The notes under the pieces were generated by a model, which saw only the letters and a program-made list of their open reading frames with translations, was not told where the DNA came from and ran no database searches. Below are positions 5,091-64,000 of a DNA stretch of 64,000 bases, piece by piece. The stretch is from Nitrososphaerota archaeon (GTDB lineage: Archaea > Thermoproteota > Nitrososphaeria_A > Caldarchaeales > Calditenuaceae), in assembly GCA_033581555.1 (NCBI GenBank), contig JAVQSZ010000001.1, positions 32,001 to 96,000 on the forward strand. Direction: 5' to 3'. The translations under genes and the position numbers were made by a program. The first letter of the stretch is position 1. Every line of letters begins with the position of its first letter.

Positions 5091-7596
5091 ATGAAGGCGA
5101 CGATCAGTCGGCGTGCGCTACTCGCTGGTGTCGCGGCCGCCTCGTCCTCCGTTCCAGTCTTCTTTTTGTTGCGTTCACTCCCCTCACGAACCAGCGACGT
5201 CTCCGGCGACGAGGGCCTCAAGGGCGAGGCCAAGTGGGTCCCTGGAGCCTGCGCTGTCTGCGGTCAGGGCTGTCCCGTCAGGCTGAAGGTCCTTAATGGC
5301 GACACGATAGTCGGAGTCTCCTTCAACGCCGAGCCCGGGAGGTCACAGTACTACGCCGTCTGCGGGAAGGTCTACGCGATCCCCTACGCTCACCGCCACC
5401 CCAACAGGATCAAGAGACCGATGATACGGGACGGGCCGCGCGGCAGCGGATCGTTCAGGCCAGTCAGCTGGGACGAGGCCCTCGACTATGTCGCCGAGAA
5501 CCTCAGGAAGTACGCGTCGGCGCCGCACCAGGTGCTGGTCTTCTCTCACCAGGGCTGGGAAGCTCCCCTGATGGACGAGTTCATGAGGCTCTTCGGGACG
5601 CCGAACGTCACGGACCACGCTGACACCTGCTTCCACAGTTCTGCAGCGGGGCGCTGGTTTCTCTTCGGGAGGACTGTCGGGCCGGGGGCCACCTACCCCG
5701 ACTACGAACACGCCCAGTTCGTGGTCCTCATGGGAAGGAATCCCTACGGGGGCACCGTTGCCGCGCCCTGGACCAAGACCCTCTCCGAGGCCGTCTCGAG
5801 GGGGCTGAGGCTGGTCGTCTTCGACGTCAGGTACAGCGAGGTATGCGAGGTCGCGGAGAGGTACTACCTAGTCAGGCCTGGCACGGACCTGGCGGTATCG
5901 CTGGCGATAGCCAGGGAGATAATCGTCAACAAATGGTACAACTCGGACTACCTCAACAGGTACACGACCGCCGGCATGCTCTTCTACGCCGACTCGATGA
6001 AGCCCGTCAAGCTAAGGAGGATAGAGAGCGGCGAGAGGGCGGGCAAGCTGGACTACCTGGTCTACTGCGACGTCGACAAGATGTATCGGTTCAGGAGCGA
6101 GGCGAAGAGGGCGAAGCTGGACTTCTCCGGGATATTCGAAGGCAAGCGGGTGGTCACCGCTCTCCGGACACTCGGCACCGCGCTAGAGAGGTACACTCCC
6201 GAGTGGGCCGAGTCGGTCAGCGGCGTTCCCGCCGGCGAGATAAGGTGGGTTGCGAGGACGCTCGCCGGTTACGGTTCAAGGGGCTTCGTCGATCCCGGCT
6301 ACAAATCGGTCAGGTACCGCAACGAGCCGATGCTCCACCGCGTCAACGCGCTCGTCAACGTCCTGATCGGCTCCTGGGGGAGCAAGGGCGGTGTGGCGTG
6401 GTCGAGGAAGCTCCCCGTTCCAACCCCTCTCCCAGAGGGTGGGTTCAAGGTTGTCGCGGGGAAGTGTTGAGAGCGTCCCGTCCTACTGGAGGAGGCACGG
6501 CTACCCGCTGGCCTCCGAGTCGTCGTTCTCGATGCTCGCCATCAGGAGCATCCTCGAGGAGCGGCCCTACCCGATAAGGGCCGCGGTGATACTCTGGCAG
6601 AATCTCGTCGCGCACGTGCCCTCCGACAGCACCGTCGTAGAGGCCCTGAAGAAGCTCGACTTCGTCCTGGTGATGGACACCACGTGGAACGAGACCGCGA
6701 AGTACGCAGACGTCGTGCTGCCGACGAAGTTCTTCTTCGAGACGGACAACGCGACCGTCTGTCAGGTCTCCAAGACCCACATCGGACAGCTGGCCCTGTC
6801 GAGGAAGGCCGTCGATCCCCCTGAGGACGTGGACGCGAAGAGCGTCGCCGAGATCGTCTACGAGCTGGTCAAGCGCCTCTTCCCCGAGAAGGCCGCGAGG
6901 GCTGAGATGCTCCTCAACCCTGAGGAGGTCTGGAGGGAGCAGTGCAAGCTCCTCGAGGTCGATTACAGGAGGCTCTCCGAACAGGGGGTGATCTCCGCGT
7001 TCAACGAGGCCGTATACGAGCCGCTAGGGGAGGCCGGGGTCCTGCCCACCGAGACCGGGGAGATAGAGCTGATCAACCTCAAGGCCCTCGAGAAGTTCGG
7101 CGAGTACCTCGGCAAGCCCCACAACCTGAACCCGCTGCCCAGCTGGATTCCGCCGCGTTGGCTCGAGGGCGGCGAGCTCGGAGAGGATGAGTTCGTACCG
7201 GTCGATTACCAGCACCCACTGATCGCGATTAACACGTGGACCCGCGACACGCCCGAGGTCGTGGAACTCCTCAGGCTCGGAGGTGAGGACGGCGTCTTCA
7301 TCAGTCGCAAGAGGGCGAGCAGGCTGGGACTTAAGGACGGAGACCTGGCCGTGTTGGTCGCGAACGGCAAGGAGCTGACCGTGAGGGTGAGGGTCTCGGA
7401 CTTGGTCGGTGACGACGTCGTCTGCGGAGTCCACGGCCTGAACCCGGGGGCCCACGAGGGAGGCGCGGTGAAGTTCGACGGCATGCCGAAGTCCGGCCTG
7501 AACACCAACTTCCTCTCGGACTTCCAGATCGTCGACGGCTACGGGAGCGCGGCGCTATACGACTTCCGGGTCAAGCTGAGGAGGTGGAGGGCATGA
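5091..7596 (+). pseudogene. Molybdopterin oxidoreductase catalytic subunit (PhsA/PsrA-like), split by a +1 frameshift near 6391-6467
   Basis: Tat signal SRRALL, Fe-S motif CAVCGQGC...CGK, putative Mo ligand in HADTC, YADVVLP and C-terminal molydop-binding domain; halves lie in frames 5091-6470 and 6391-7596. Could be an assembly error rather than a true pseudogene. Confidence 0.8.
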
Positions 7597-8402
7597 AGCC
7601 CGCGATGGTCATCGACCTGAACAGGTGCATAGGGTGCAGGGCCTGTGTCGCCGCCTGCCTCCTTGAGAACGCCACGACGTTGAACGGAGGGCCGGTGCTA
7701 GACCTGAACGCGGCCAAGTACTCGAGGACCGTGCCGGTGATGGTCGGGACCCAAGACTTCCTCAGGAGGGTCTTCAGGCAGTGCGTCCAATGCGACTCGC
7801 CGCCCTGCGCCGCCGTCTGCCCGACCGGCGCGACGTTCAGGACCGAGGAGGGAGTGGTGCTGGTGAACAGGGAGCTCTGCATCGGGTGTGGCCTCTGCGG
7901 GGACGCCTGCCCGTACGGAGTGATCAACTTCCCGGTGGCTGGGGCCCGAAAGCCTAGCCACCGGTACGCCGTGAGGCGCGGAGTGCCGGACAGGTGCACG
8001 TTCTGCTACCACAGGAGGACTGAGGATGGTAAGCTCTGGACTCCGGCCTGCATCGAGGCCTGCGCTTTCGGCGCGAGGGTCTTCGGCGACCTCGACGACC
8101 CCAAAAACGAGGTCTCGAGGCTCGTGAGGGCCGGGGTGGCCATAGGCCCGAGACCGGACTTCCAGACCAGTCCGAAGCTCTTCTTCGTCCCGCGAAAGGG
8201 AGGCTACGAGCTCGTCAACTACCCGACGAGGGGCGAATACTCGTTCGGGTTGGCCGGCAGGGACTGGAGCCTCCTAAAGGAAAGCCTCGTCAGGCCGCTG
8301 GCGGAGCTGGCTATGGCGGCCGCGGTCGTCCTCGGGCTCGTCCACATCATCAGGGAGGCGAGGAAGTCCAGAAGGAAGGAGGTGAAGGAGGGTGAGAGGT
8401 GA
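7593..8402 (+). CDS. 4Fe-4S electron-transfer subunit (PhsB/PsrB/NrfC-like) with C-terminal TM helix
   Basis: CIGCRACVAAC, CVQCDSPPCAAVCP, CIGCGLCGDACP, CTFC...ACIEAC. Confidence 0.92.
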   Translation: MKPAMVIDLNRCIGCRACVAACLLENATTLNGGPVLDLNAAKYSRTVPVMVGTQDFLRRVFRQCVQCDSPPCAAVCPTGATFRTEEGVVLVNRELCIGCGLCGDACPYGVINFPVAGARKPSHRYAVRRGVPDRCTFCYHRRTEDGKLWTPACIEACAFGARVFGDLDDPKNEVSRLVRAGVAIGPRPDFQTSPKLFFVPRKGGYELVNYPTRGEYSFGLAGRDWSLLKESLVRPLAELAMAAAVVLGLVHIIREARKSRRKEVKEGER

Positions 8403-9090
8403 GCGAGTCCTCAGGTGGAACAGGACCGCCAGGATCGCCCACTGGCTCATGGTGATTGGCGTGACCGCCGGCTTCGTGTCGGGCCTCCCGGTGCTGGACG
8501 GAAGGCTGTTCAAGCCCATCGACGACCTACTCGGGGGCGAGGCGGTGAGGGAGTTCCTCCACTACTACGTGACGACGGTCTTCTTAGGGGCCGCTATACC
8601 GCTCGTCTTCGTGAGGGGCATCGCTGCCCGGGGAGATGAGTGGTGGTGGCCTTCATGGGACGAGGTGAAGCAAGCCGTCCGGGTGGCGCTCCACTGGTTC
8701 GGGCTCAGCCGCGAGTACCCGGTCATAGGGTTCCACCACCCAATGGAGAAGCTGTTCCTCATGTCGGTGCACTTCGGCCTCGTCCTGCTCGGCCTCTCGG
8801 GCGTACTGATGGTCTTCGCGGACCTGGGGCCGACGTACAAGTTCGTGCTGTTGATGCTCCACGACATCGGATTCCTGATGGTCAGCGTCCCGCTCGCTGG
8901 CCACTTCCTCCTCGCGGTCAACCCGGTCAACTGGCAGGCCCTCAGGGCCATCTTCACGGACGGGAAGGTAGACCTCTCGTGGGCGCGTCACCACCACCCG
9001 GGGTGGAAGGCGGCGAACGCTTCGGCAGACCCGAGGGTCGGGGGGAGCGAACGGGGACGCGAGAGGGGTCCCGCGCGACGGGACGCTTAA
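8392..9090 (+). CDS. Di-heme cytochrome b membrane anchor (PhsC/FdnI-like)
   Basis: RIAHW, FLHYY, LHDIG, GHF histidines in four TM helices; WARHHHPGW tail. Confidence 0.88.
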   Translation: MRGERVLRWNRTARIAHWLMVIGVTAGFVSGLPVLDGRLFKPIDDLLGGEAVREFLHYYVTTVFLGAAIPLVFVRGIAARGDEWWWPSWDEVKQAVRVALHWFGLSREYPVIGFHHPMEKLFLMSVHFGLVLLGLSGVLMVFADLGPTYKFVLLMLHDIGFLMVSVPLAGHFLLAVNPVNWQALRAIFTDGKVDLSWARHHHPGWKAANASADPRVGGSERGRERGPARRDA

Positions 9091-9435: not shown

Positions 9436-9656
9436 TCCCCGCGATCAGGTCCTGTCGGCCTCATTTAGGTGTAGCTATCCGCGATGCGGCCTTCAACAGA
9501 GGGGTCCGAGAGTCGCCGGGCGCATGAGGGCGTTCGCTGGAGGCCTCCCGGGGTCGAGGATCGACGGTCGTCGCGCTCGTCACATGGGCTGTCGGAGGTC
9601 TACGTGGGACTTCGTCGCTCCCCCTTCCGTTCGGGCCCCGAGGTCAGCAGGACGCG

Positions 9657-9728
9657 TGGGGCCGGCCGGACTCGAACCGGCGACCTCCGCCGTGTGAGGG
9701 CGGCGTCATACCACTAGACCACGGCCCC
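9657..9728 (-). tRNA. tRNA-Val(CAC)
   Basis: GGGGCCG acceptor stem, anticodon arm CCGCC-CTCACAC-GGCGG, T arm GCCGG-TTCGAGT-CCGGC; CCA not encoded. Confidence 0.95.
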
Positions 9729-10305
9729 GCCCGTCCCCATCCCACGCTTCGCTCTTAAGGTTACCTCCCCTCAGCCTCAACACCCGCTTTCCCCTGGGAT
9801 CAGGGATGACCTTCAGCATCGCACCCTCGAACTCGACCTTGAAGACGCGGCCCTCGAGGAGCCTGTCGAGGAAGACGGCGAGCGCGGCGACCTCGCTGTG
9901 GGGCTGGTTCCCGATCGCGACGTTGTAGTCTGCCAGCTCGTAGACGACCCTCGGGACCTTGCTGGCCCCCACCACGACGACCATGTCCCTCTGATCGAGC
10001 TGGTTCCGGAGCTCCCCGAGGACGTCGAGGAGGCTCACGCCGTACATCGTCAGGTGGACCAGGACGTCGCCCGCGGCCTTCCGATCCCTGATGTATCCCT
10101 CCCAGTCCTCGACGAAGTCGACCTCGAAGGGCCCTCCCCACTGCTCGGTCACCCTCCTGATCGAACCGATTAGCCCGTCGTCTCTGTCGCCAGAGATCAT
10201 GACCCCGGAAGCGCCGAAGGCCCTCGCGGTGAGCGCAACGTGGACGGTGACCCTGTCGTCCCTACCGACCCTGTGGAAGAGCCTCAGGACCGTTATCCTT
10301 CTCAT
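9706..10305 (-). CDS. trm56: tRNA (cytidine(56)-2'-O)-methyltransferase aTrm56
   Basis: VLRLFHR..RDDRVTVHVALTARAFGA, HLTMYG, VGASKVP, IGNQPHSEVAALA; ATG 10305 overlaps the TFE stop. Confidence 0.93.
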   Translation of the reverse strand: MRRITVLRLFHRVGRDDRVTVHVALTARAFGASGVMISGDRDDGLIGSIRRVTEQWGGPFEVDFVEDWEGYIRDRKAAGDVLVHLTMYGVSLLDVLGELRNQLDQRDMVVVVGASKVPRVVYELADYNVAIGNQPHSEVAALAVFLDRLLEGRVFKVEFEGAMLKVIPDPRGKRVLRLRGGNLKSEAWDGDGRGRGLVV

Positions 10306-10808
10306 CTCAGGAGCCTGCTCAGCTCCGCTATCTTCTCGTCGATTGCCTTCAGCATCTCGGAGGGGTCGTAGGGCTGGAGCTGGTTCCCGCAGTACGGGCA
10401 CTTGAAGAAGTGGTCGACGGCGATCGAGAAGTCCAGCTTCCTGCAGCTCGCGTTCCCGCACCAGTAGACGACGTTAGTGGAGTAGAACTCCCTCAGCATC
10501 TTCAACCTCTCGATGATCCTGATCGCCTGGCCGCGGACCGTGCTGACCACCTGCTCGAGCTGGAGCCGCCATCTGAAGGTCCTCTTGCCGTTCTCCTTCT
10601 CGAAGCTGACCGTATAGGTCACCAGAGAGAGCTCCAGTAGCCTGTGGAGCGTCTTCCTGACCTGCTTGACGTCGACCCCCAGCCTCTCCGCCAACTCCTC
10701 GTCGGAGAGTCCGGGCTCCTCCAGGAGCAGCTTGACGACCTTAGTCGCCTCCTCTCCCCCGAAGACCTCGGTCAGCTTGACGACCTCGGAGGGCTCGATG
10801 TAGTACAA
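10302..10808 (-). CDS. tfe: Transcription factor E (TFE alpha)
   Basis: Winged helix (SDEELAERLG..VRK.L..L) and zinc ribbon CGNASC...FKCPYCG. Confidence 0.92.
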   Translation of the reverse strand: MYYIEPSEVVKLTEVFGGEEATKVVKLLLEEPGLSDEELAERLGVDVKQVRKTLHRLLELSLVTYTVSFEKENGKRTFRWRLQLEQVVSTVRGQAIRIIERLKMLREFYSTNVVYWCGNASCRKLDFSIAVDHFFKCPYCGNQLQPYDPSEMLKAIDEKIAELSRLLR

Positions 10809-60810: not shown

Positions 60811-61515
60811 GTGAACGCCTCCGAGTTGGAGTTAGGCGACGTTTTCAGGACCGCGGTTCCACCCCTGTTGTCAGCTATGTTAGTCCTAGGAGTTGTCGTT
60901 CTGTTCCCCGGGCTGATCCCCGGGACCTACAAGGTCACGACCGCGACCGTTCCAGTCCCCGTCTTCACGACACGGTTCGTTAACGTCACGACGACCCTGA
61001 CCACCGCCTACCTCGTCGACTCCCGGGGACCTGTTTGGGAGCCAGTGTTCGTGGACCTCTCGGAAAGGCCCACCGAGGGGACGATCACCGTCCTTAACAG
61101 GACGCTGACCAAGGAGAAGCCAGCGCTCGCAATAGTCTTCATAGCCGCGGCGCCCCGAGGTTACGAGTTCGCGAGCACGGTGAACGGCTTCGTCTACAGG
61201 CTCGAGGCTAAAGTCGCGAACAGGGTCACGGCGCTCGTCGCGGAGGCGTCACCTCCAGTCATCCCAGGGCTCAGCCGCGAGAACTTCAGGGACCTGCTGA
61301 CGGAGAGGGCGTTCTCACCGGTTAACGTCCTGCCGTTCCAGAACCCGAGGAGGACCGAAGTCTCACCGGGGCCCTTCACACTCCAGAGGGAGCGTGGAGC
61401 CTACGTGCCGTATCCGTGGCTCGCGATCTGGCCGATCTCGGTTCACCTCTACGGCATCGAGAGGGACGTCCACGTGACGGTCACGCTCTCCTACAGCCTG
61501 GTCGGGGCGAAGTGA
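60811..61515 (+). CDS. Membrane-anchored hypothetical protein with Thr/Val-rich stalk
   Basis: N-terminal TM, Thr-rich segment, NVT/NRT sequons; stop overlaps the GTG of the E1 frame. Confidence 0.65.
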   Translation: MNASELELGDVFRTAVPPLLSAMLVLGVVVLFPGLIPGTYKVTTATVPVPVFTTRFVNVTTTLTTAYLVDSRGPVWEPVFVDLSERPTEGTITVLNRTLTKEKPALAIVFIAAAPRGYEFASTVNGFVYRLEAKVANRVTALVAEASPPVIPGLSRENFRDLLTERAFSPVNVLPFQNPRRTEVSPGPFTLQRERGAYVPYPWLAIWPISVHLYGIERDVHVTVTLSYSLVGAK

Positions 61516-62354
61516 GGCAGGAGCTCGCGCGGCGGACTCGGGTCTTCGAGATCTTCAGGATGGACGAGGACCGGTATGAGCGGCAGAGGAGGCTCTGGGA
61601 CCAGAGGAGGATATCGTCCCTGAAGGTCCTAGTGGGAGGTGCAGGGGCGCTCGGGAACGAGGTCGTGAAGAACCTGGTCCAGATCGGCGTGAAGAGGGTC
61701 TACGTCGTCGACTTCGACAGGGTCGTCCACTCGAACCTGAACAGGTGCCTCTTCTTCAGGAGAAGCGACGCGACCAAGAGGGCGAAGAAGGTCGATGCGC
61801 TCGCGAGGAGGGCCTCGGACCTCAACCCGGACGTGGAGGTCATTCCGGTCTTCGGGGACATTCGCGACCTCCCGAGCGACGTGATCAAGGACGTCGACAT
61901 GGCCCTTGGGGCCTTCGACAACCTCTTCGCTAGGCTCGTCCTCAACGCGATGTGCTACTCTAACGGTAAGCCCCTAGTTGACGGCGGAATGGAGGGGGTG
62001 CTCGGGACGGTCCAGGTCGTCCTCCCCCCGGAGAGCCCCTGCCTGGAGTGCGGGATGAGTGAGCGGGACCTCGAGCACATGTGGGAGAGGATCTCCTGCA
62101 GCGGCGACGTCGTCGTCGATGACGGTCCGAAGCTGCCCTACATTCCAATGACCGGAGCCCTCGTCGGAGCTCTGCAGGTCATGGAGGCGGTCAAGATAGT
62201 CCTCGGCCTCGAGTCCTACAGGTCTTCCGGGAGGTGGAACGAGTCGGTCGGAGCACCCCTCGTCGGCAAGTCCCTCTTCATCGACCTCAGGTCCAACCTG
62301 AGCTACGCCTACGACCTCCACAAGAGGAGCGACTGCAACGTCTGCGCCCCCTGA
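61512..62354 (+). CDS. Ubiquitin-activating E1-like enzyme (ThiF/UBA family)
   Basis: DRYERQ, GAGALGNEVVKNL, D.D.V..SNLNR..FFR, PCLEC, likely catalytic Cys in ISC, C-terminal CNVC; start GTG 61512 or ATG 61560. Confidence 0.92.
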   Translation: MRQELARRTRVFEIFRMDEDRYERQRRLWDQRRISSLKVLVGGAGALGNEVVKNLVQIGVKRVYVVDFDRVVHSNLNRCLFFRRSDATKRAKKVDALARRASDLNPDVEVIPVFGDIRDLPSDVIKDVDMALGAFDNLFARLVLNAMCYSNGKPLVDGGMEGVLGTVQVVLPPESPCLECGMSERDLEHMWERISCSGDVVVDDGPKLPYIPMTGALVGALQVMEAVKIVLGLESYRSSGRWNESVGAPLVGKSLFIDLRSNLSYAYDLHKRSDCNVCAP

Positions 62355-62438: not shown

Positions 62439-62852
62439 GTGGAAAGAACTAGGTCGAGGGCAGGCCTCAGCGAAGCCGTAACGGCCATTCTGCTGGTGGT
62501 GATCGGGATTGCGATGGCGCTCATGATCTGGCAGTTCTTCACACCACGTCCGACTGAGGAGCTGAGAATAGGGCCCGTCGACGTCTCGGGAGGGGTGGTC
62601 GTCTTCACGGCGCAGAACGTCGGGAGCGTAGACGCGGAGATAATCGGAGTCGCGTGCTACACCGCGGGACAGCCTCCGGCGGCCGGAGGAGGGGTGACTC
62701 CCTTGGGCGGCGCGGACACCAAGCTTCAGCAGGGCGAGTCGAGCACCTTCACCGGGAGCTGCGGAGGCGCGGAGCCAGGCAAGCCGATCAACGTGATGGT
62801 CTATACCAAGAACAAGGCCTACGGTCCTTTCACGGTCATCGTCAGGTCGTGA
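62439..62852 (+). CDS. Archaeal type IV pilin-like protein (class III signal peptide)
   Basis: MERTRSRAG|LSEAVTAILLVVIGIAMALMIW; beta-rich domain with N.G.V and two Cys; TTTTATA box at 62409. Confidence 0.82.
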   Translation: MERTRSRAGLSEAVTAILLVVIGIAMALMIWQFFTPRPTEELRIGPVDVSGGVVVFTAQNVGSVDAEIIGVACYTAGQPPAAGGGVTPLGGADTKLQQGESSTFTGSCGGAEPGKPINVMVYTKNKAYGPFTVIVRS

Positions 62853-62967: not shown

Positions 62968-63789
62968 ATGATCGTTACCGTGAACGAGCTGACCACTAAG
63001 CGAAGCGTCAGGTTGGAGGTCGAGCCCGGCCACACGGTGAGGGCGGTCGTCGAGGAGGTGATGAAAGCGCTGAAGGTCCCGCCGCAGACGACGTACAGGC
63101 TGGTACTGGGCGGGAAGGAGATCGGGCCAGAACTCTTCGACAAGACGCTGGGCGAGCTGGGCATATCGGACGGTGCTGTGATGGACCTCGTCCCGAGGCC
63201 CGTCGGCGGATCAACCCTCTTGCCCAAGGAGAAGTTCCTGAAGAGGCTGGAGAGGGAGGAGGAGGACCTGAGGAACGGCGGGTACCCTTTCACCAGACAA
63301 GACGTCTGGAGTCCGATGAACTTCCCGATGGTCTACAGCGCAGGCTACGAGACGGTCAACGTGGCGGTGAGGTACACGGTCTCCTTCAGGGCCAGGGGGT
63401 TCGTCATGACGAAGAGGGGGATCGAGGAGCAGTGGGACCACTTGGCGAGCCTCTACGTCCTCGACTACTACCCCTACATGGATCCAAAGAAGGGTGCACC
63501 GATGAGGATATTCTGGGAGAGCGACATTTTCCACCCTAACATCTGCCCTGGGCCCCGCTTCAACGGAAACGGGCTCGTCTGCTGGAAGATGATCAAGGAA
63601 TGGGGGAAGACCTTCTCGCTCGCGACGCTCGTGAGGGGGCTTCAGCTCCTCGTCGAGAACCCAAACCCCGAAGACCCGCTCAGCAAGATACCGATATGCA
63701 TGCACGCAGCGTCCTTCTTCAAGGAGAACCCGCACCTCACGGGCACCTACAGGCCAGATACCGGAAGCAGGCCCAGAGTGATCGAATAG
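62968..63789 (+). CDS. Ubiquitin-like domain (ends PVGG) fused to a ubiquitin-conjugating E2-like domain
   Basis: Residues 1-81 have a ubiquitin beta-grasp pattern (LEVEP..TV, RLV.GGK, KTL.E.GI.DG...DL...GG); the rest has KRL.RE, YP, P, IFHPNI, G.VC, W, L..L..NPNPEDPL. Confidence 0.88.
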   Translation: MIVTVNELTTKRSVRLEVEPGHTVRAVVEEVMKALKVPPQTTYRLVLGGKEIGPELFDKTLGELGISDGAVMDLVPRPVGGSTLLPKEKFLKRLEREEEDLRNGGYPFTRQDVWSPMNFPMVYSAGYETVNVAVRYTVSFRARGFVMTKRGIEEQWDHLASLYVLDYYPYMDPKKGAPMRIFWESDIFHPNICPGPRFNGNGLVCWKMIKEWGKTFSLATLVRGLQLLVENPNPEDPLSKIPICMHAASFFKENPHLTGTYRPDTGSRPRVIE

Positions 63790-63799
63790 GTGCGAGGAC

Positions 63800-64000
63800 T
63801 TGAGGGGAGAGGAGGCGGGCGTCCTCCCCGTCTACGTCGAGCTGGAGGCCCTCGTTAAGGCCGTCAGGCACTGTAGGGAGGGACTGCCTTACGAGGTCAT
63901 CGGTTTCCTGATTGGAGAGCGGCTGAGGTGGAGGGACAAGCTCTACGTCTTAATCACCGACACCGTGAGGGGTAGGTCGGTTCAAACCCGCACCTACGTC
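63800..64000 (+). CDS. JAB/MPN+ (Rpn11-like) metalloprotease, N-terminal part (runs off window; not in ORF track)
   Basis: TTG 63800: MRGEEAGVLPVYVELEALVKAVRHCREGLPYEVIGFLIG..., matching the Rpn11-type V.I...ALLK...H....P.EV.G...G; the HxH motif lies beyond the window. Confidence 0.82.
   Translation, partial: MRGEEAGVLPVYVELEALVKAVRHCREGLPYEVIGFLIGERLRWRDKLYVLITDTVRGRSVQTRTYV

What the first reader, a model, noticed from the sequence alone, without database searches (positions are those of the whole stretch)
62968..63789. Ubl-GG fused in frame to its own E2: a pro-ubiquitin whose leaving group is the conjugating enzyme
Seen: the GG codons end at 63210, followed by TCA ACC CTC TTG CCC AAG and a complete E2 domain with no stop. 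Known: ubiquitin is often made as a C-terminally extended precursor, and archaeal Rpn11 matures pro-ubiquitin. Inference: the adjacent JAB would cut after G81 and release Ubl and E2 at 1:1, so the cascade would be gated by proteolysis. Alternative: TCA at 63211 is one substitution from TAA/TGA and a TTG at 63220 could start a separate E2, so the fusion may be recent or a base-call error.
Basis: partly seen in the sequence, partly recalled or inferred. Interest (0 to 1): 0.85.

Follow-up and report, generated by a model that had tools for sequence, protein, structure and literature searches.

The report
Archaeal ubiquitin-like protein fused to E2
A hot-spring archaeon encodes a ubiquitin-like protein and its conjugating enzyme as one conserved polypeptide, joined at the Gly-Gly site where a neighbouring protease most likely cuts them apart; the same design is already known in bacteria.

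Summary
ORF 62968..63789 (273 aa) reads without a stop from a ubiquitin-like domain ending in G80-G81 (codons end at 63210), through S-T-L-L-P, into an E2 domain with HPN and a catalytic Cys.

It is not a base-call error. The fusion is intact in 5 genomes of the genus, in contigs of 4 public runs, and in 10 further distant cluster representatives. G80 and G81 are invariant in all 18 aligned fused proteins.

The N-terminal domain models as ubiquitin, with a low-confidence hinge at residues 80-82. The gene lies between a short UBA1-like E1 and an Rpn11-like JAB gene that starts 10 nt downstream. The genome also holds a separate canonical Ub-E2-E1 operon.

Related operons carry the same genes unfused, and fused and split forms are interleaved on the E2 tree. 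A complex prediction places residues 75-84 in the JAB active site: score 0.84, best control 0.02.

The best reading is a precursor cut after G81 by the JAB. This is inferred, not shown.

Bacterial Type I Bub BubAB is an experimentally cleaved Ubl-E2 fusion. This is therefore a new archaeal, eukaryote-type variant of a known design.

The parts
61416..62354 (+). Short E1 (ThiF/UBA1-like adenylating enzyme). The ORF is 312 aa from GTG. The likely start is ATG 61557, giving 265 aa.
   Evidence: Pfam ThiF scores 157.6 bits. The best solved relatives are the active adenylation domains of eukaryotic UBA1 (E 7e-23), ahead of MoeB/ThiF (1e-15). The four short E1s share a Cys in 'ER.sC.G'. They lack the roughly 40-aa insertion and the roughly 90-aa C-terminal domain of the genome's canonical 406-aa E1.
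62439..62852 (+). 137-aa protein with a hydrophobic N-terminal segment, pilin-like by my reading, lying between the E1 and the fusion gene.
   Evidence: ORF. No Pfam or NCBIfam match. It is conserved at 86-95% identity in this position in 3 other genus genomes, seen in 4 loci. Its role is unknown.
62968..63210 (+). Ubiquitin-like beta-grasp domain, residues 1-81, ending ...LVPRPVGG.
   Evidence: AF2 gives a beta-beta-alpha-beta-beta-beta fold for residues 1-77. Foldseek matches ubiquitin, NEDD8 and C. subterraneum Ub. The family profile aligns end to end with ubiquitin repeats, with GG on Ub G75-G76 (per-repeat E about 5e-8). G80 and G81 are invariant in 18 of 18 fused proteins.
63205..63225 (+). 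Junction: G80 G81 | S82 T83 L84 L85 P86. The predicted scissile bond lies between 63210 and 63211.
   Evidence: Residues 80-82 have pLDDT below 50, between two confident domains. The complex model puts residues 75-84 against JAB E32, H95, H97 and S105-D108. In the 18 fused proteins P1' is S, A or T in 14, and I, L, V or K in 4, as read.
63211..63789 (+). E2 (UBC) domain, residues 82-273, plus the stop codon. Helix alpha-1 starts at K87. It ends in the C-terminal tail ...RPRVIE.
   Evidence: Pfam UQ_con scores 31 bits against a cut-off of 27. The family profile matches UBE2A/B, Rad6 and UBE2N at E about 6e-21. Free-standing homologues start M-(x)-LP..L..RL, at the position of L84/L85.
63532..63540 (+). 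HPN motif (H189 P190 N191) of the E2.
   Evidence: Invariant in 18 of 18 fused proteins. Codons CAC CCT AAC read.
63580..63582 (+). Catalytic cysteine C205 (TGC) of the E2.
   Evidence: Invariant in 18 of 18. It lies 14 residues after the HPN motif, in 'GLVCW'. It aligns with the active-site region of solved E2s.
63800..64000 (+). JAB/JAMM (Rpn11-like) metalloprotease. It starts at TTG 63800, 10 nt after the fusion's stop, and runs off the window. The full gene is 160 aa and ends at what would be window position 64282 (L005:5801..6283).
   Evidence: Pfam JAB scores 52.9 bits against a cut-off of 22.5. E32, H95, S96, H97, S105 and D108 are invariant in 30 homologues. The profile matches yeast Rpn11 (8.8e-30) and C. 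subterraneum Rpn11 6fjv (5.5e-29).

Best explanation
The gene encodes a pre-protein of a compact, accessory archaeal ubiquitin-like system: a short E1, a Ubl~E2 fusion and an Rpn11-like JAB, probably with a nearby RING-like protein.

Proposed steps, all inferred:
1. The JAB encoded 10 nt downstream binds the ubiquitin-like domain, threads its tail (V75-G81) through the JAMM site and cuts the G81-S82 peptide bond.
2. The cut frees a Ubl with a C-terminal Gly-Gly carboxylate, which the E1 needs for adenylation. It also frees an E2 whose first helix begins five residues after the cut. The two are released in equimolar amounts.
3. The freed Ubl is then activated by the short E1, passed to E2 Cys205 and conjugated to unknown targets.

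What is shown here is the fused reading frame, its conservation, the identity of the domains, the catalytic residues and the operon. Cleavage, thioester transfer and targets are not shown.
For: 1. GG is invariant in 18 of 18 fused proteins spanning 25-90% identity, while only one other Ubl-domain residue (L45) is invariant. The GG codons change synonymously within the genus.
2. Homologous operons carry the same parts unfused. The free Ubl ends at GG or at GG plus a short tail: L034 has Ubl (81 aa...GG*)-E2-JAB, and L043 and L011 have Ubl (GG plus tail)-E1-E2-JAB. Free E2s start at the residue equivalent to L84/L85.
3. On an E2 tree of 53 rows the fused state needs 8 changes, at least 5 of them forced by well-supported branches. 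Fused and split forms therefore look interchangeable.
4. A JAB gene lies next to the fusion in all 5 genus genomes and in the distant marine locus L036, which reads fusion-JAB-short E1 at 24.5% identity in tblastn.
5. AF2 gives two confident domains with a hinge of pLDDT below 50 exactly at residues 80-82.
6. The complex prediction of JAB with residues 1-100 scores 0.84, against 0.02 for the best of 3 controls. That mark was reached by 58 of 80 solved complexes and 2 of 110 mismatched pairs. The runs agree in at least 82% of contacts and partner pLDDT is at least 81. The interface covers JAB residues 32, 95, 97 and 105-108 against fusion residues 75-84.
7. No second copy of this Ubl was found in the 90.6%-complete genome. 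The fused copy is thus the only found candidate of its family for this E1/E2 pair.
8. There are experimental precedents. CsRpn11 cuts pro-Ub precisely after GG and cuts linear CsUb fusions to folded proteins once a 3-residue linker is present (passages, PMC6043591). BubCD's JAB domain cuts the bacterial Ubl-E2 fusion BubAB just after its conserved Gly (passages, PMC11601596).
Against: - There is no biochemical, proteomic or transcript evidence for this protein.
- The complex prediction may pass by likeness to the solved CsUb:CsRpn11 complex (6fnn). The tool's counts hold only roughly here, because my own alignments and a riding Zn were used.
- The genome has two other JAB genes and a canonical Ub that already ends in GG. 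Other protease and modifier pairings are therefore conceivable.
- Only five residues separate GG from the E2's first helix. In P0010, one of the 18 fused proteins, I count 3, and steric hindrance by a folded partner was seen for CsRpn11 on a directly fused DHFR.
- Many 'split' rows in the tree are context-free metagenome gene calls that could be truncated. Only L034, L011 and L043 are verified as split operons.
Confidence: 0.7

Rival explanations
1. The Ubl is a permanent, uncleaved N-terminal domain of the E2, like the integral UBL domains of other proteins. It would recruit or regulate the enzyme, for example by binding the E1, the JAB or the proteasome. The conjugated modifier would be another protein, such as the genome's canonical Ub.
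For: - The genome encodes a free canonical Ub that ends in GG.
- The AF2 model is confident for both domains as a single chain.
- No cleavage product has been observed.
Against: - GG is invariant at the domain boundary in 18 of 18 fused proteins, while the rest of the Ubl diverges to about 25% identity.
- A eukaryotic Ub fusion reported as uncleaved has lost Gly75 (Giardia Ub-eS31; passage in the review PMC11354881).
- Split homologues make the same Ubl as a free protein ending at GG.
- The canonical Ub shows no BLASTP alignment to this Ubl, and it has its own E2 and E1 beside it.
- The hinge at residues 80-82 is modelled as disordered, and the JAB model places it in the active site.
Confidence: 0.12
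2. The fusion is a precursor, but it is processed by a protease other than the adjacent JAB. That could be one of the two other JAB paralogues in the genome. The adjacent JAB would then act only as the deconjugase.
For: - Three JAB genes exist in the genome.
- In the Bub study the authors propose separate roles for pre-protein cleavage (the JAB domain) and deconjugation (BubE).
Against: - The adjacent JAB starts 10 nt after the fusion gene.
- It stays linked to the fusion even where the E1 has moved 16 kb away in G001.
- It is also adjacent in the distant locus L036.
- CsRpn11 performs both precursor processing and deconjugation.
- The complex prediction with this JAB passes. The other paralogues were not tested.
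Confidence: 0.08
3. A free E2 is also, or mainly, made by internal translation initiation near the junction (TTG 63220 here, ATG at residue 83 in some relatives). The E2 supply would then not depend on proteolysis.
For: - Free-standing homologues start exactly at this position with M-LP.
- Three of the five genus genomes have ATG at residue 83, and the window has TTG at residue 85.
Against: - No start codon is conserved. Residue 83 is ACC in the window and in one relative. Residue 85 is CTG or CTC elsewhere.
- P0003, P0005 and P0007 have A-L, A-L and I-L there.
- Internal initiation would not explain the invariant GG.
- Translation starts cannot be tested with these tools.
Confidence: 0.05
4. 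The open junction is a sequencing or assembly error, or a very recent accidental read-through of two genes.
For: TCA at 63211 is one substitution away from TAA or TGA.
Against: - The same open frame occurs in 5 genus genomes at 78-94% identity.
- It occurs in contigs of 4 runs from 3 studies.
- It occurs in 8 of 9 close metagenome homologues.
- It occurs in 10 distant cluster representatives.
Confidence: 0.01

Closest known systems
Bacterial Type I Bub (formerly 6E.1) operons: BubAB (Ubl-E2 fusion) and BubCD (JAB-E1 fusion)
   Same: A Ubl with a conserved C-terminal Gly is encoded in frame with the E2 of its own operon. A JAB peptidase of the same operon cuts just after that Gly and yields a conjugation-competent Ubl. 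This was shown by SDS-PAGE, active-site mutants and Edman sequencing (passages of PMC11601596). The fusion was noted bioinformatically in 2006 as a 'polyUbl fused to an inactive E2-like domain' (PMC1779556).
   Different: - Bub is bacterial.
- Its E2 uses a Ser/His oxyester and its E1 a Tyr. Here the E2 has invariant HPN and Cys, and the short E1s share a candidate Cys.
- In Bub the JAB is fused to the E1. Here they are separate genes.
- Bub has BubE/DUF6527, which was not found in this genome.
- Bub Ubls have 1-3 beta-grasp domains. Here there is one.
- The proteins here are closest to eukaryotic ubiquitin, UBC E2s, UBA1 and Rpn11.
Caldiarchaeum subterraneum-type archaeal ubiquitin operon (pro-Ub, E2, E1, small RING finger protein, Rpn11)
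   Same: - It is an archaeal, eukaryote-like Ub/E2/E1/Rpn11 set.
- The Ub is made as a precursor, and Rpn11 cuts precisely after GG. Rpn11 also cuts linear Ub fusions (PMC6043591; PMC5654768 seen in the listing and abstract only).
- The JAB here matches CsRpn11 at 5.5e-29.
   Different: - The precursor tail there is 9 residues, not an enzyme.
- This genome carries that canonical operon separately: a 78-aa Ub ending in GG, a 182-aa E2 and a 406-aa E1.
- The fused Ubl does not align with the canonical Ub by BLASTP, and the two E2s share 25% identity.
- The E1 here is short and lacks the C-terminal domain.
Eukaryotic ubiquitin fusion precursors (polyubiquitin, Ub-eL40, Ub-eS31)
   Same: Ubiquitin is translated head to tail with another protein and released by cleavage after Gly-Gly. 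The two products are made 1:1 (review passages, PMC11354881). The profile of this family aligns across polyubiquitin junctions, with 'GG|x' against 'GG|MQI'.
   Different: The partner there is a ribosomal protein or another ubiquitin, not a component of the conjugation cascade. The processing enzymes are mostly non-JAMM DUBs.
Bacterial Bil (BilABCD) systems
   Same: It is an operon of Ubl, E2, JAB and E1 in which the JAB pre-processes the Ubl C-terminus (preprint passages, 10.1101/2023.09.26.559546). Like this system it is a patchy accessory system.
   Different: The Ubl and E2 are separate genes. No PADLOC model matched the fusion protein. No defence role is shown here.

Membership tests
Ubiquitin-type beta-grasp modifiers | Beta-grasp fold like ubiquitin | tested here: met
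   AF2 model has pLDDT 88.9 overall. Foldseek gives TM 0.82-0.88 normalised to ubiquitin or NEDD8 chains, rmsd 1.6-2.4 A over 77-82 columns, and CsUb 6fnn_C at 0.76.
Ubiquitin-type beta-grasp modifiers | Sequence membership (Pfam ubiquitin PF00240 or Rad60-SLD) | tested here: inconclusive
   The single sequence is below the gathering cut-offs: 23.2 against 25.4 bits, and 23.3 against 23.8. The family profile matches ubiquitin repeats at about 5e-8 per repeat.
Ubiquitin-type beta-grasp modifiers | Gly-Gly at the end of the beta-grasp, exposed as the C-terminus for adenylation | tested here: inconclusive
   GG is present, invariant, and aligned to Ub G75-G76. Its exposure by cleavage is inferred, not shown.
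Ubiquitin-type beta-grasp modifiers | Covalent conjugation to target proteins | not testable with these tools
   This needs biochemistry or proteomics.
UBC-fold E2 conjugating enzymes | Pfam UQ_con above the curated cut-off | tested here: met
   31 bits against a cut-off of 27, covering only aa 177-240. The family profile matches solved E2s at E about 6e-21.
UBC-fold E2 conjugating enzymes | HPN motif and catalytic cysteine | tested here: met
   H189, P190, N191 and C205 are invariant in 18 of 18 fused proteins.
UBC-fold E2 conjugating enzymes | UBC fold confirmed by structure comparison | not tested
   The top 50 Foldseek hits for the two-domain model were taken up by ubiquitin chains.
Type I Bub (BubAB/BubCD/BubE) | Ubl fused N-terminally to the operon's E2 | tested here: met
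Type I Bub (BubAB/BubCD/BubE) | JAB peptidase fused to the E1 (BubCD) | tested here: not met
   The E1 (61416..62354) and the JAB (63800..) are separate genes on either side of the fusion.
Type I Bub (BubAB/BubCD/BubE) | E2 with catalytic Ser/His (oxyester) instead of Cys | tested here: not met
   HPN and Cys205 are invariant, as in classical E2s.
Type I Bub (BubAB/BubCD/BubE) | BubE (DUF6527, PF20137) in the operon | tested here: not met
   PF20137 has no match in the whole 90.6%-complete genome, and none appears among the neighbours scanned.
Caldiarchaeum-type archaeal Ub operon | Long E1 (about 400 aa) with a C-terminal domain, beside a free pro-Ub and E2 | tested here: not met
   The E1 here is 265-312 aa without the C-terminal extension. 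The genome's canonical operon is elsewhere. The two Ubls are not alignable.
Caldiarchaeum-type archaeal Ub operon | Rpn11-like JAMM protease | tested here: met
   Pfam JAB scores 52.9 bits. The JAMM residues are invariant. The profile matches Rpn11 at 8.8e-30 and CsRpn11 at 5.5e-29.
Caldiarchaeum-type archaeal Ub operon | Small RING-finger E3 in the neighbourhood | tested here: inconclusive
   The 108-aa protein at L005:8490..8816 matches Prok-RING_1 only at E 0.0016 (18.8 bits against a cut-off of 29.1). One homologue carries a precomputed PF14446 hit. Eight Cys/Asp/His positions are invariant in 6 sequences. The AF2 model has pLDDT 67.9. Foldseek has no hit at E 0.001 or better, but RING and U-box domains dominate the top ranks.

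The most novel reading that the evidence does not exclude
This is a proteolytically licensed, self-contained, eukaryote-type ubiquitylation module in archaea. Modifier and E2 are held inert in one chain: the Ubl C-terminus is blocked, and the E2's N-terminal helix (by recalled knowledge of canonical E2s, the E1-binding surface; not tested here) sits five residues from a bulky Ubl. A dedicated Rpn11-like JAB arms both together. The module is an accessory, patchily inherited system that coexists with the housekeeping Ub operon and has switched between fused and split forms at least five times. It may be triggered by stress or virus infection, like bacterial Bil and Bub, and it travels with a RING-like protein, wHTH/coiled-coil proteins and pilin-like genes.
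Probability: 0.3. Interest if true: 0.75.

Novelty: new variant of a known kind. Interest (0 to 1): 0.55.

Why it matters
It would show that encoding the modifier as a pre-protein whose leaving group is the conjugating enzyme arose outside the divergent bacterial Bub lineage. Here it occurs in an archaeal system whose parts are closest to eukaryotic ubiquitin, UBC E2s, UBA1 and Rpn11.

It also reveals a second, compact Ub-like system beside the canonical one in Caldarchaeales-like archaea. That gives a natural, thermostable three-protein set (short E1, Ubl~E2, JAB) for three questions:
- how a minimal E1 lacking the C-terminal domain of the canonical archaeal E1 recruits its E2;
- how proteolytic maturation controls a Ub cascade;
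- how fused and split gene architectures interconvert.

The biological targets are unknown.

Tried and rejected
- **Base-call error or recent fusion.** Rejected.
- **TTG 63220 as a conserved separate E2 start.** Rejected, because the codon is not conserved.
- **Membership in bacterial defence families.** PADLOC gave no hit for the fusion protein. The E1 and the JAB gave only generic E1-E2 and JAB hits. NCBIfam gave nothing for the fusion.
- **Bub membership.** Rejected on three defining features.
- **The search for related loci with the 18-sequence alignment.** It failed for lack of a conserved stretch, so a 9-sequence alignment was used instead.
- **RNA evidence.** No RNA holder was listed among the runs, so nothing can be said about expression.
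- **Raw reads.** None were available. Only Logan contigs were laid.
- **Neighbouring proteins.** Those of 259, 246, 285, 358 and 507 aa have no Pfam family above threshold. The Atlas gave only a weak winged-helix lead for residues 5-73 of the 358-aa protein.
- **RING-like 108-aa protein.** The Foldseek search gave no significant hit.
- **Literature.** Four searches and passages of six papers turned up no description of an archaeal Ubl-E2 fusion. Burroughs et al. 2011 (PMC5938088) is not held, and the supplements of the Aigarchaeota and Bub papers were not seen, so prior mention there cannot be excluded.
- **The search of earlier findings.** It was closed.
- **Rows left out of the tree.** Near-duplicates: P0005 and P0158-P0168. 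Fragments or odd architectures: P0008, P0016, P0022, P0024, P0033, P0047, P0068, P0087, P0100, P0131, P0136, P0143 and P0155.
- **Loci.** Four of them have the same junction DNA as loci. They add taxon labels but no extra genomes.
Full report
**Observation.** From ATG 62968 the frame gives an 81-residue N-terminal part ending ...DLVPRPVGG. G80 is GGC (63205-07) and G81 is GGA (63208-10). The next codons are TCA ACC CTC TTG CCC AAG (S-T-L-L-P-K), and the frame runs on without a stop to TAG at 63787-89, giving 273 aa. The ORF listing starts the ORF at TTG 62959, but orthologues begin M-I-V/I-T, so ATG 62968 is the likely start.

**The gene is real, not an artefact.**
- Among 61 related genomes, the uninterrupted fused frame is present in 5 of the 7 genomes of the genus, including the window's own, at 78-94% identity. 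One genus genome (84% complete) has no match. One has only a divergent split operon on a 40% GC contig, while the window is 64% GC, so that contig is probably mis-binned.
- The 5.8-billion-protein search gave 9 homologues. Six are full-length fusions at 65-90% identity. Two are truncated or frameshifted but still contain the junction. One (P0009, 190 aa, on a 711-base contig) begins right after it.
- Logan contigs of four hot-spring runs from three studies cross the junction without any change. The three substitutions inside the gene are all at third codon positions. These are contigs, not raw reads, and three of the four runs may include the source sample.
- Within the genus the two Gly codons vary synonymously and codon 82 is never a stop.

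**Domain identities.**
- Pfam places a ubiquitin/Rad60-SLD match at aa 4-75, just under the gathering cut-offs, and UQ_con at aa 177-240 above the cut-off.
- A profile of 18 fused proteins aligns its N-terminal 80 positions end to end with ubiquitin repeats, with GG on Ub G75-G76 (about 5e-8 per repeat). Its C-terminal part aligns with UBE2A/B, Rad6 and UBE2N (about 6e-21).
- AlphaFold2 on a 32-row alignment gives mean pLDDT 88.9. It models a beta-grasp at residues 1-77, a hinge below pLDDT 50 at residues 80-82, and a helix from 87.
- Foldseek matches the N-terminal domain to ubiquitin, NEDD8 and the C. subterraneum ubiquitin (TM 0.76-0.88 normalised to the target).
- In the 18-protein alignment (25-90% identity to the query) the invariant residues are L45, G80, G81, L94, H189-P190-N191, C205, W212 and P232. 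These include the di-glycine, the E2 HPN motif and the catalytic cysteine.

**Context.**
- Upstream lies a short E1 (ThiF, 157.6 bits). Its closest solved relatives are the active adenylation domains of eukaryotic UBA1 (7e-23), ahead of MoeB/ThiF.
- This E1 shares a candidate catalytic Cys with the other short E1s. It lacks the insertion and the C-terminal domain of the genome's 406-aa canonical E1.
- Ten nucleotides after the fusion's stop a JAB gene starts. It is 160 aa and runs off the window. It has invariant JAMM residues and profile matches to yeast Rpn11 (8.8e-30) and C. subterraneum Rpn11 (5.5e-29).
- The genome also has, on another contig, a canonical Caldiarchaeum-type operon: a 78-aa Ub ending ...TRTVGG, a 182-aa E2 and a 406-aa E1. 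It has two further JAB genes as well.
- The fused Ubl does not align with the canonical Ub by BLASTP, and the two E2s share 25% identity.
- No second copy of the fused-type Ubl was found in the 90.6%-complete genome.
- A gene block is conserved in three other genus genomes: E1, a 137-aa pilin-like protein, the fusion, the JAB, three minus-strand genes, a 108-aa RING-like protein, and two wHTH/coiled-coil proteins.
- In the fourth the block is rearranged. The fusion-JAB pair stays beside the RING-like and coiled-coil genes, while the E1 lies 16 kb away.

**The wider family.**
- An exhaustive HMMER search of 1.84 billion representatives found 230 proteins at E 0.001 or better. Among the best 150 are 10 further fused representatives at 25-43% identity: P0010, P0030, P0040, P0043, P0075, P0107, P0109, P0119, P0139 and P0156.
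- All 10 have GG, then 1-10 residues, then the E2's N-terminal helix, usually after LP (L..W.KRL..E). Free E2s starting M-(x)-LP... and free Ubls ending GG or GG plus 1-17 residues were also found.
- A marine metagenome contig carries fusion-JAB-short E1, and another carries E1-fusion.
- Verified split versions of the same operon exist. A record labelled Desulfurococcales has Ubl (...GG*)-E2-JAB. Another family of the phylum has Ubl (GG plus tail)-E1-E2-JAB.
- The system is rare. Only 5 of 401 sampled genomes of the phylum (3 of 161 genera) match at E 1e-10 or better.
- On a maximum-likelihood tree of 53 E2 domains the fused state needs 8 changes, at least 5 of them forced by well-supported branches. 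Many 'split' rows are context-free gene calls that could be truncated.

**Mechanism.**
- An E1 must adenylate a free C-terminal carboxylate. This is established knowledge of E1 chemistry and is restated in PMC6053391. The fused Ubl therefore cannot be activated until it is cut.
- Several observations point to cleavage after G81: the invariant GG, the disordered hinge, the interchangeability with split genes, and the tightly linked Rpn11-like JAB.
- A complex prediction of the JAB (30-row alignment, with Zn) against residues 1-100 of the fusion (18-row alignment) scored 0.84, against 0.02 for the best of three controls. That mark was reached by 58 of 80 solved complexes and 2 of 110 mismatched pairs. 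The runs agree in at least 82% of contacts, and partner pLDDT is at least 81.
- The interface joins JAB E32, H95, H97 and S105-D108 to fusion residues 75-84. Because the CsUb:CsRpn11 complex is solved (6fnn), this pass may reflect likeness rather than independent evidence.
- Experimentally, CsRpn11 cuts pro-Ub exactly after GG and cuts linear CsUb fusions. A directly fused folded DHFR was cut only when partly unfolded, and a 3-residue linker removed that constraint. Bulky residues just after the cut block it (passages of PMC6043591).
- Here the spacer before the E2 helix is five residues, and P1' is S, A or T in 14 of the 18 fused proteins.
- I put 0.7 on 'precursor cut after G81 by the adjacent JAB, releasing Ubl and E2 1:1'. 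All steps after translation are inferred.

**Comparison with what is known.**
- The concept is not new. Iyer et al. 2006 listed bacterial operons (type 6e) in which a polyUbl is fused to an E2-like domain (passages, PMC1779556).
- A 2024 preprint showed that in Type I Bub operons the Ubl-E2 fusion BubAB is cut immediately after its conserved Gly by the JAB domain of BubCD. The evidence was active-site mutants and Edman sequencing (passages, PMC11601596; also PMC11601603).
- The present system is not a Bub member. Its JAB and E1 are separate genes. Its E2 has HPN and Cys rather than the Bub Ser/His. DUF6527 was not found in the genome. It is archaeal.
- Nor is it the canonical archaeal operon, which the same genome carries elsewhere.
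- In four literature searches and the passages read, I found no description of an archaeal, eukaryote-type Ubl-E2 fusion.

**Verdict.** Its novelty is reduced by the bacterial precedent. I rate it a new variant of a known kind, interest 0.55.

The boldest reading not excluded is a zymogen-like, accessory ubiquitylation module armed by a dedicated Rpn11-like protease, possibly with a stress or antiviral role. I give it probability 0.3.

Noticed in passing
G000:C7, locus L026:6171..8127 (outside the window): The same genome has a complete canonical Caldiarchaeum-type operon: a 78-aa Ub ending exactly at ...TRTVGG, a 182-aa E2, and a 406-aa E1 with a C-terminal extension. The organism therefore carries two separate Ub-like systems.
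   Followed up: partly
Window 63763..63786 (fusion residues 266-273); also L035:499..1353 and L037:1129..1965: E2s of this family end in a conserved basic-Pro-[RK]-[VI]-[VI] tail (RPRVIE, GPRVVG, GPRIVG, KPAIVG). It is repeated three times in L035 (PRVVSKPRVVSKPRVVRP). The tail resembles the Ubl's own tail PRPVGG. It might bind the E1 or the JAB, but this was not tested.
   Followed up: no
L005:8490..8816 (would be window 66489..66815, outside the window): A 108-aa protein carries the invariant pattern C-x2-D-x11-C-x2-C-x4-H-x2-C-x10-C-x2-C. By my reading this is PHD or RING-CH-like spacing. Pfam gives only weak Prok-RING_1 and PHD hits, and Foldseek gives only weak RING/U-box hits. It stays linked to the fusion-JAB pair after a rearrangement, so it is a candidate E3.
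   Followed up: partly
Window 62439..62852; L005:7215..7691 and 7670..8410: Small proteins with hydrophobic N-terminal segments lie inside and beside the operon. One has a sub-threshold DUF7288 match. By my reading they are pilin-like, and they are conserved with the operon in the genus. The reason is unknown.
   Followed up: partly
L005:8823..9680, 9634..10710 and 6439..7218: Three helical proteins of 285, 358 and 259 aa have no family. The 358-aa one has a weak winged-helix lead at residues 5-73. All three remain next to the fusion-JAB pair in the rearranged genome, so they may belong to the system.
   Followed up: partly
Proteins P0024 and P0022: Relatives of this E2 family occur fused to a C-terminal domain that, by my reading of its sequence, resembles a Ser/Thr protein kinase (P0024, 475 aa), and as a tandem double E2 (P0022, 352 aa).
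   Followed up: no
G005:C91 (L011) compared with G240:C8 (L043): The split Ubl-E1-E2-JAB operon in genus genome G005 sits on a 40% GC contig with masked bases. It mirrors the operon of a genome from another family (39% GC). That contig is probably mis-binned.
   Followed up: partly
Window 63289..63462 (fusion residues 108-165): The AF2 model gives this E2 three unusually long beta-strands (108-120, 127-148, 151-165). The protein is about 40 residues longer than classical UBC domains. The P0040 and P0119 group of fused relatives lacks this extension.
   Followed up: no
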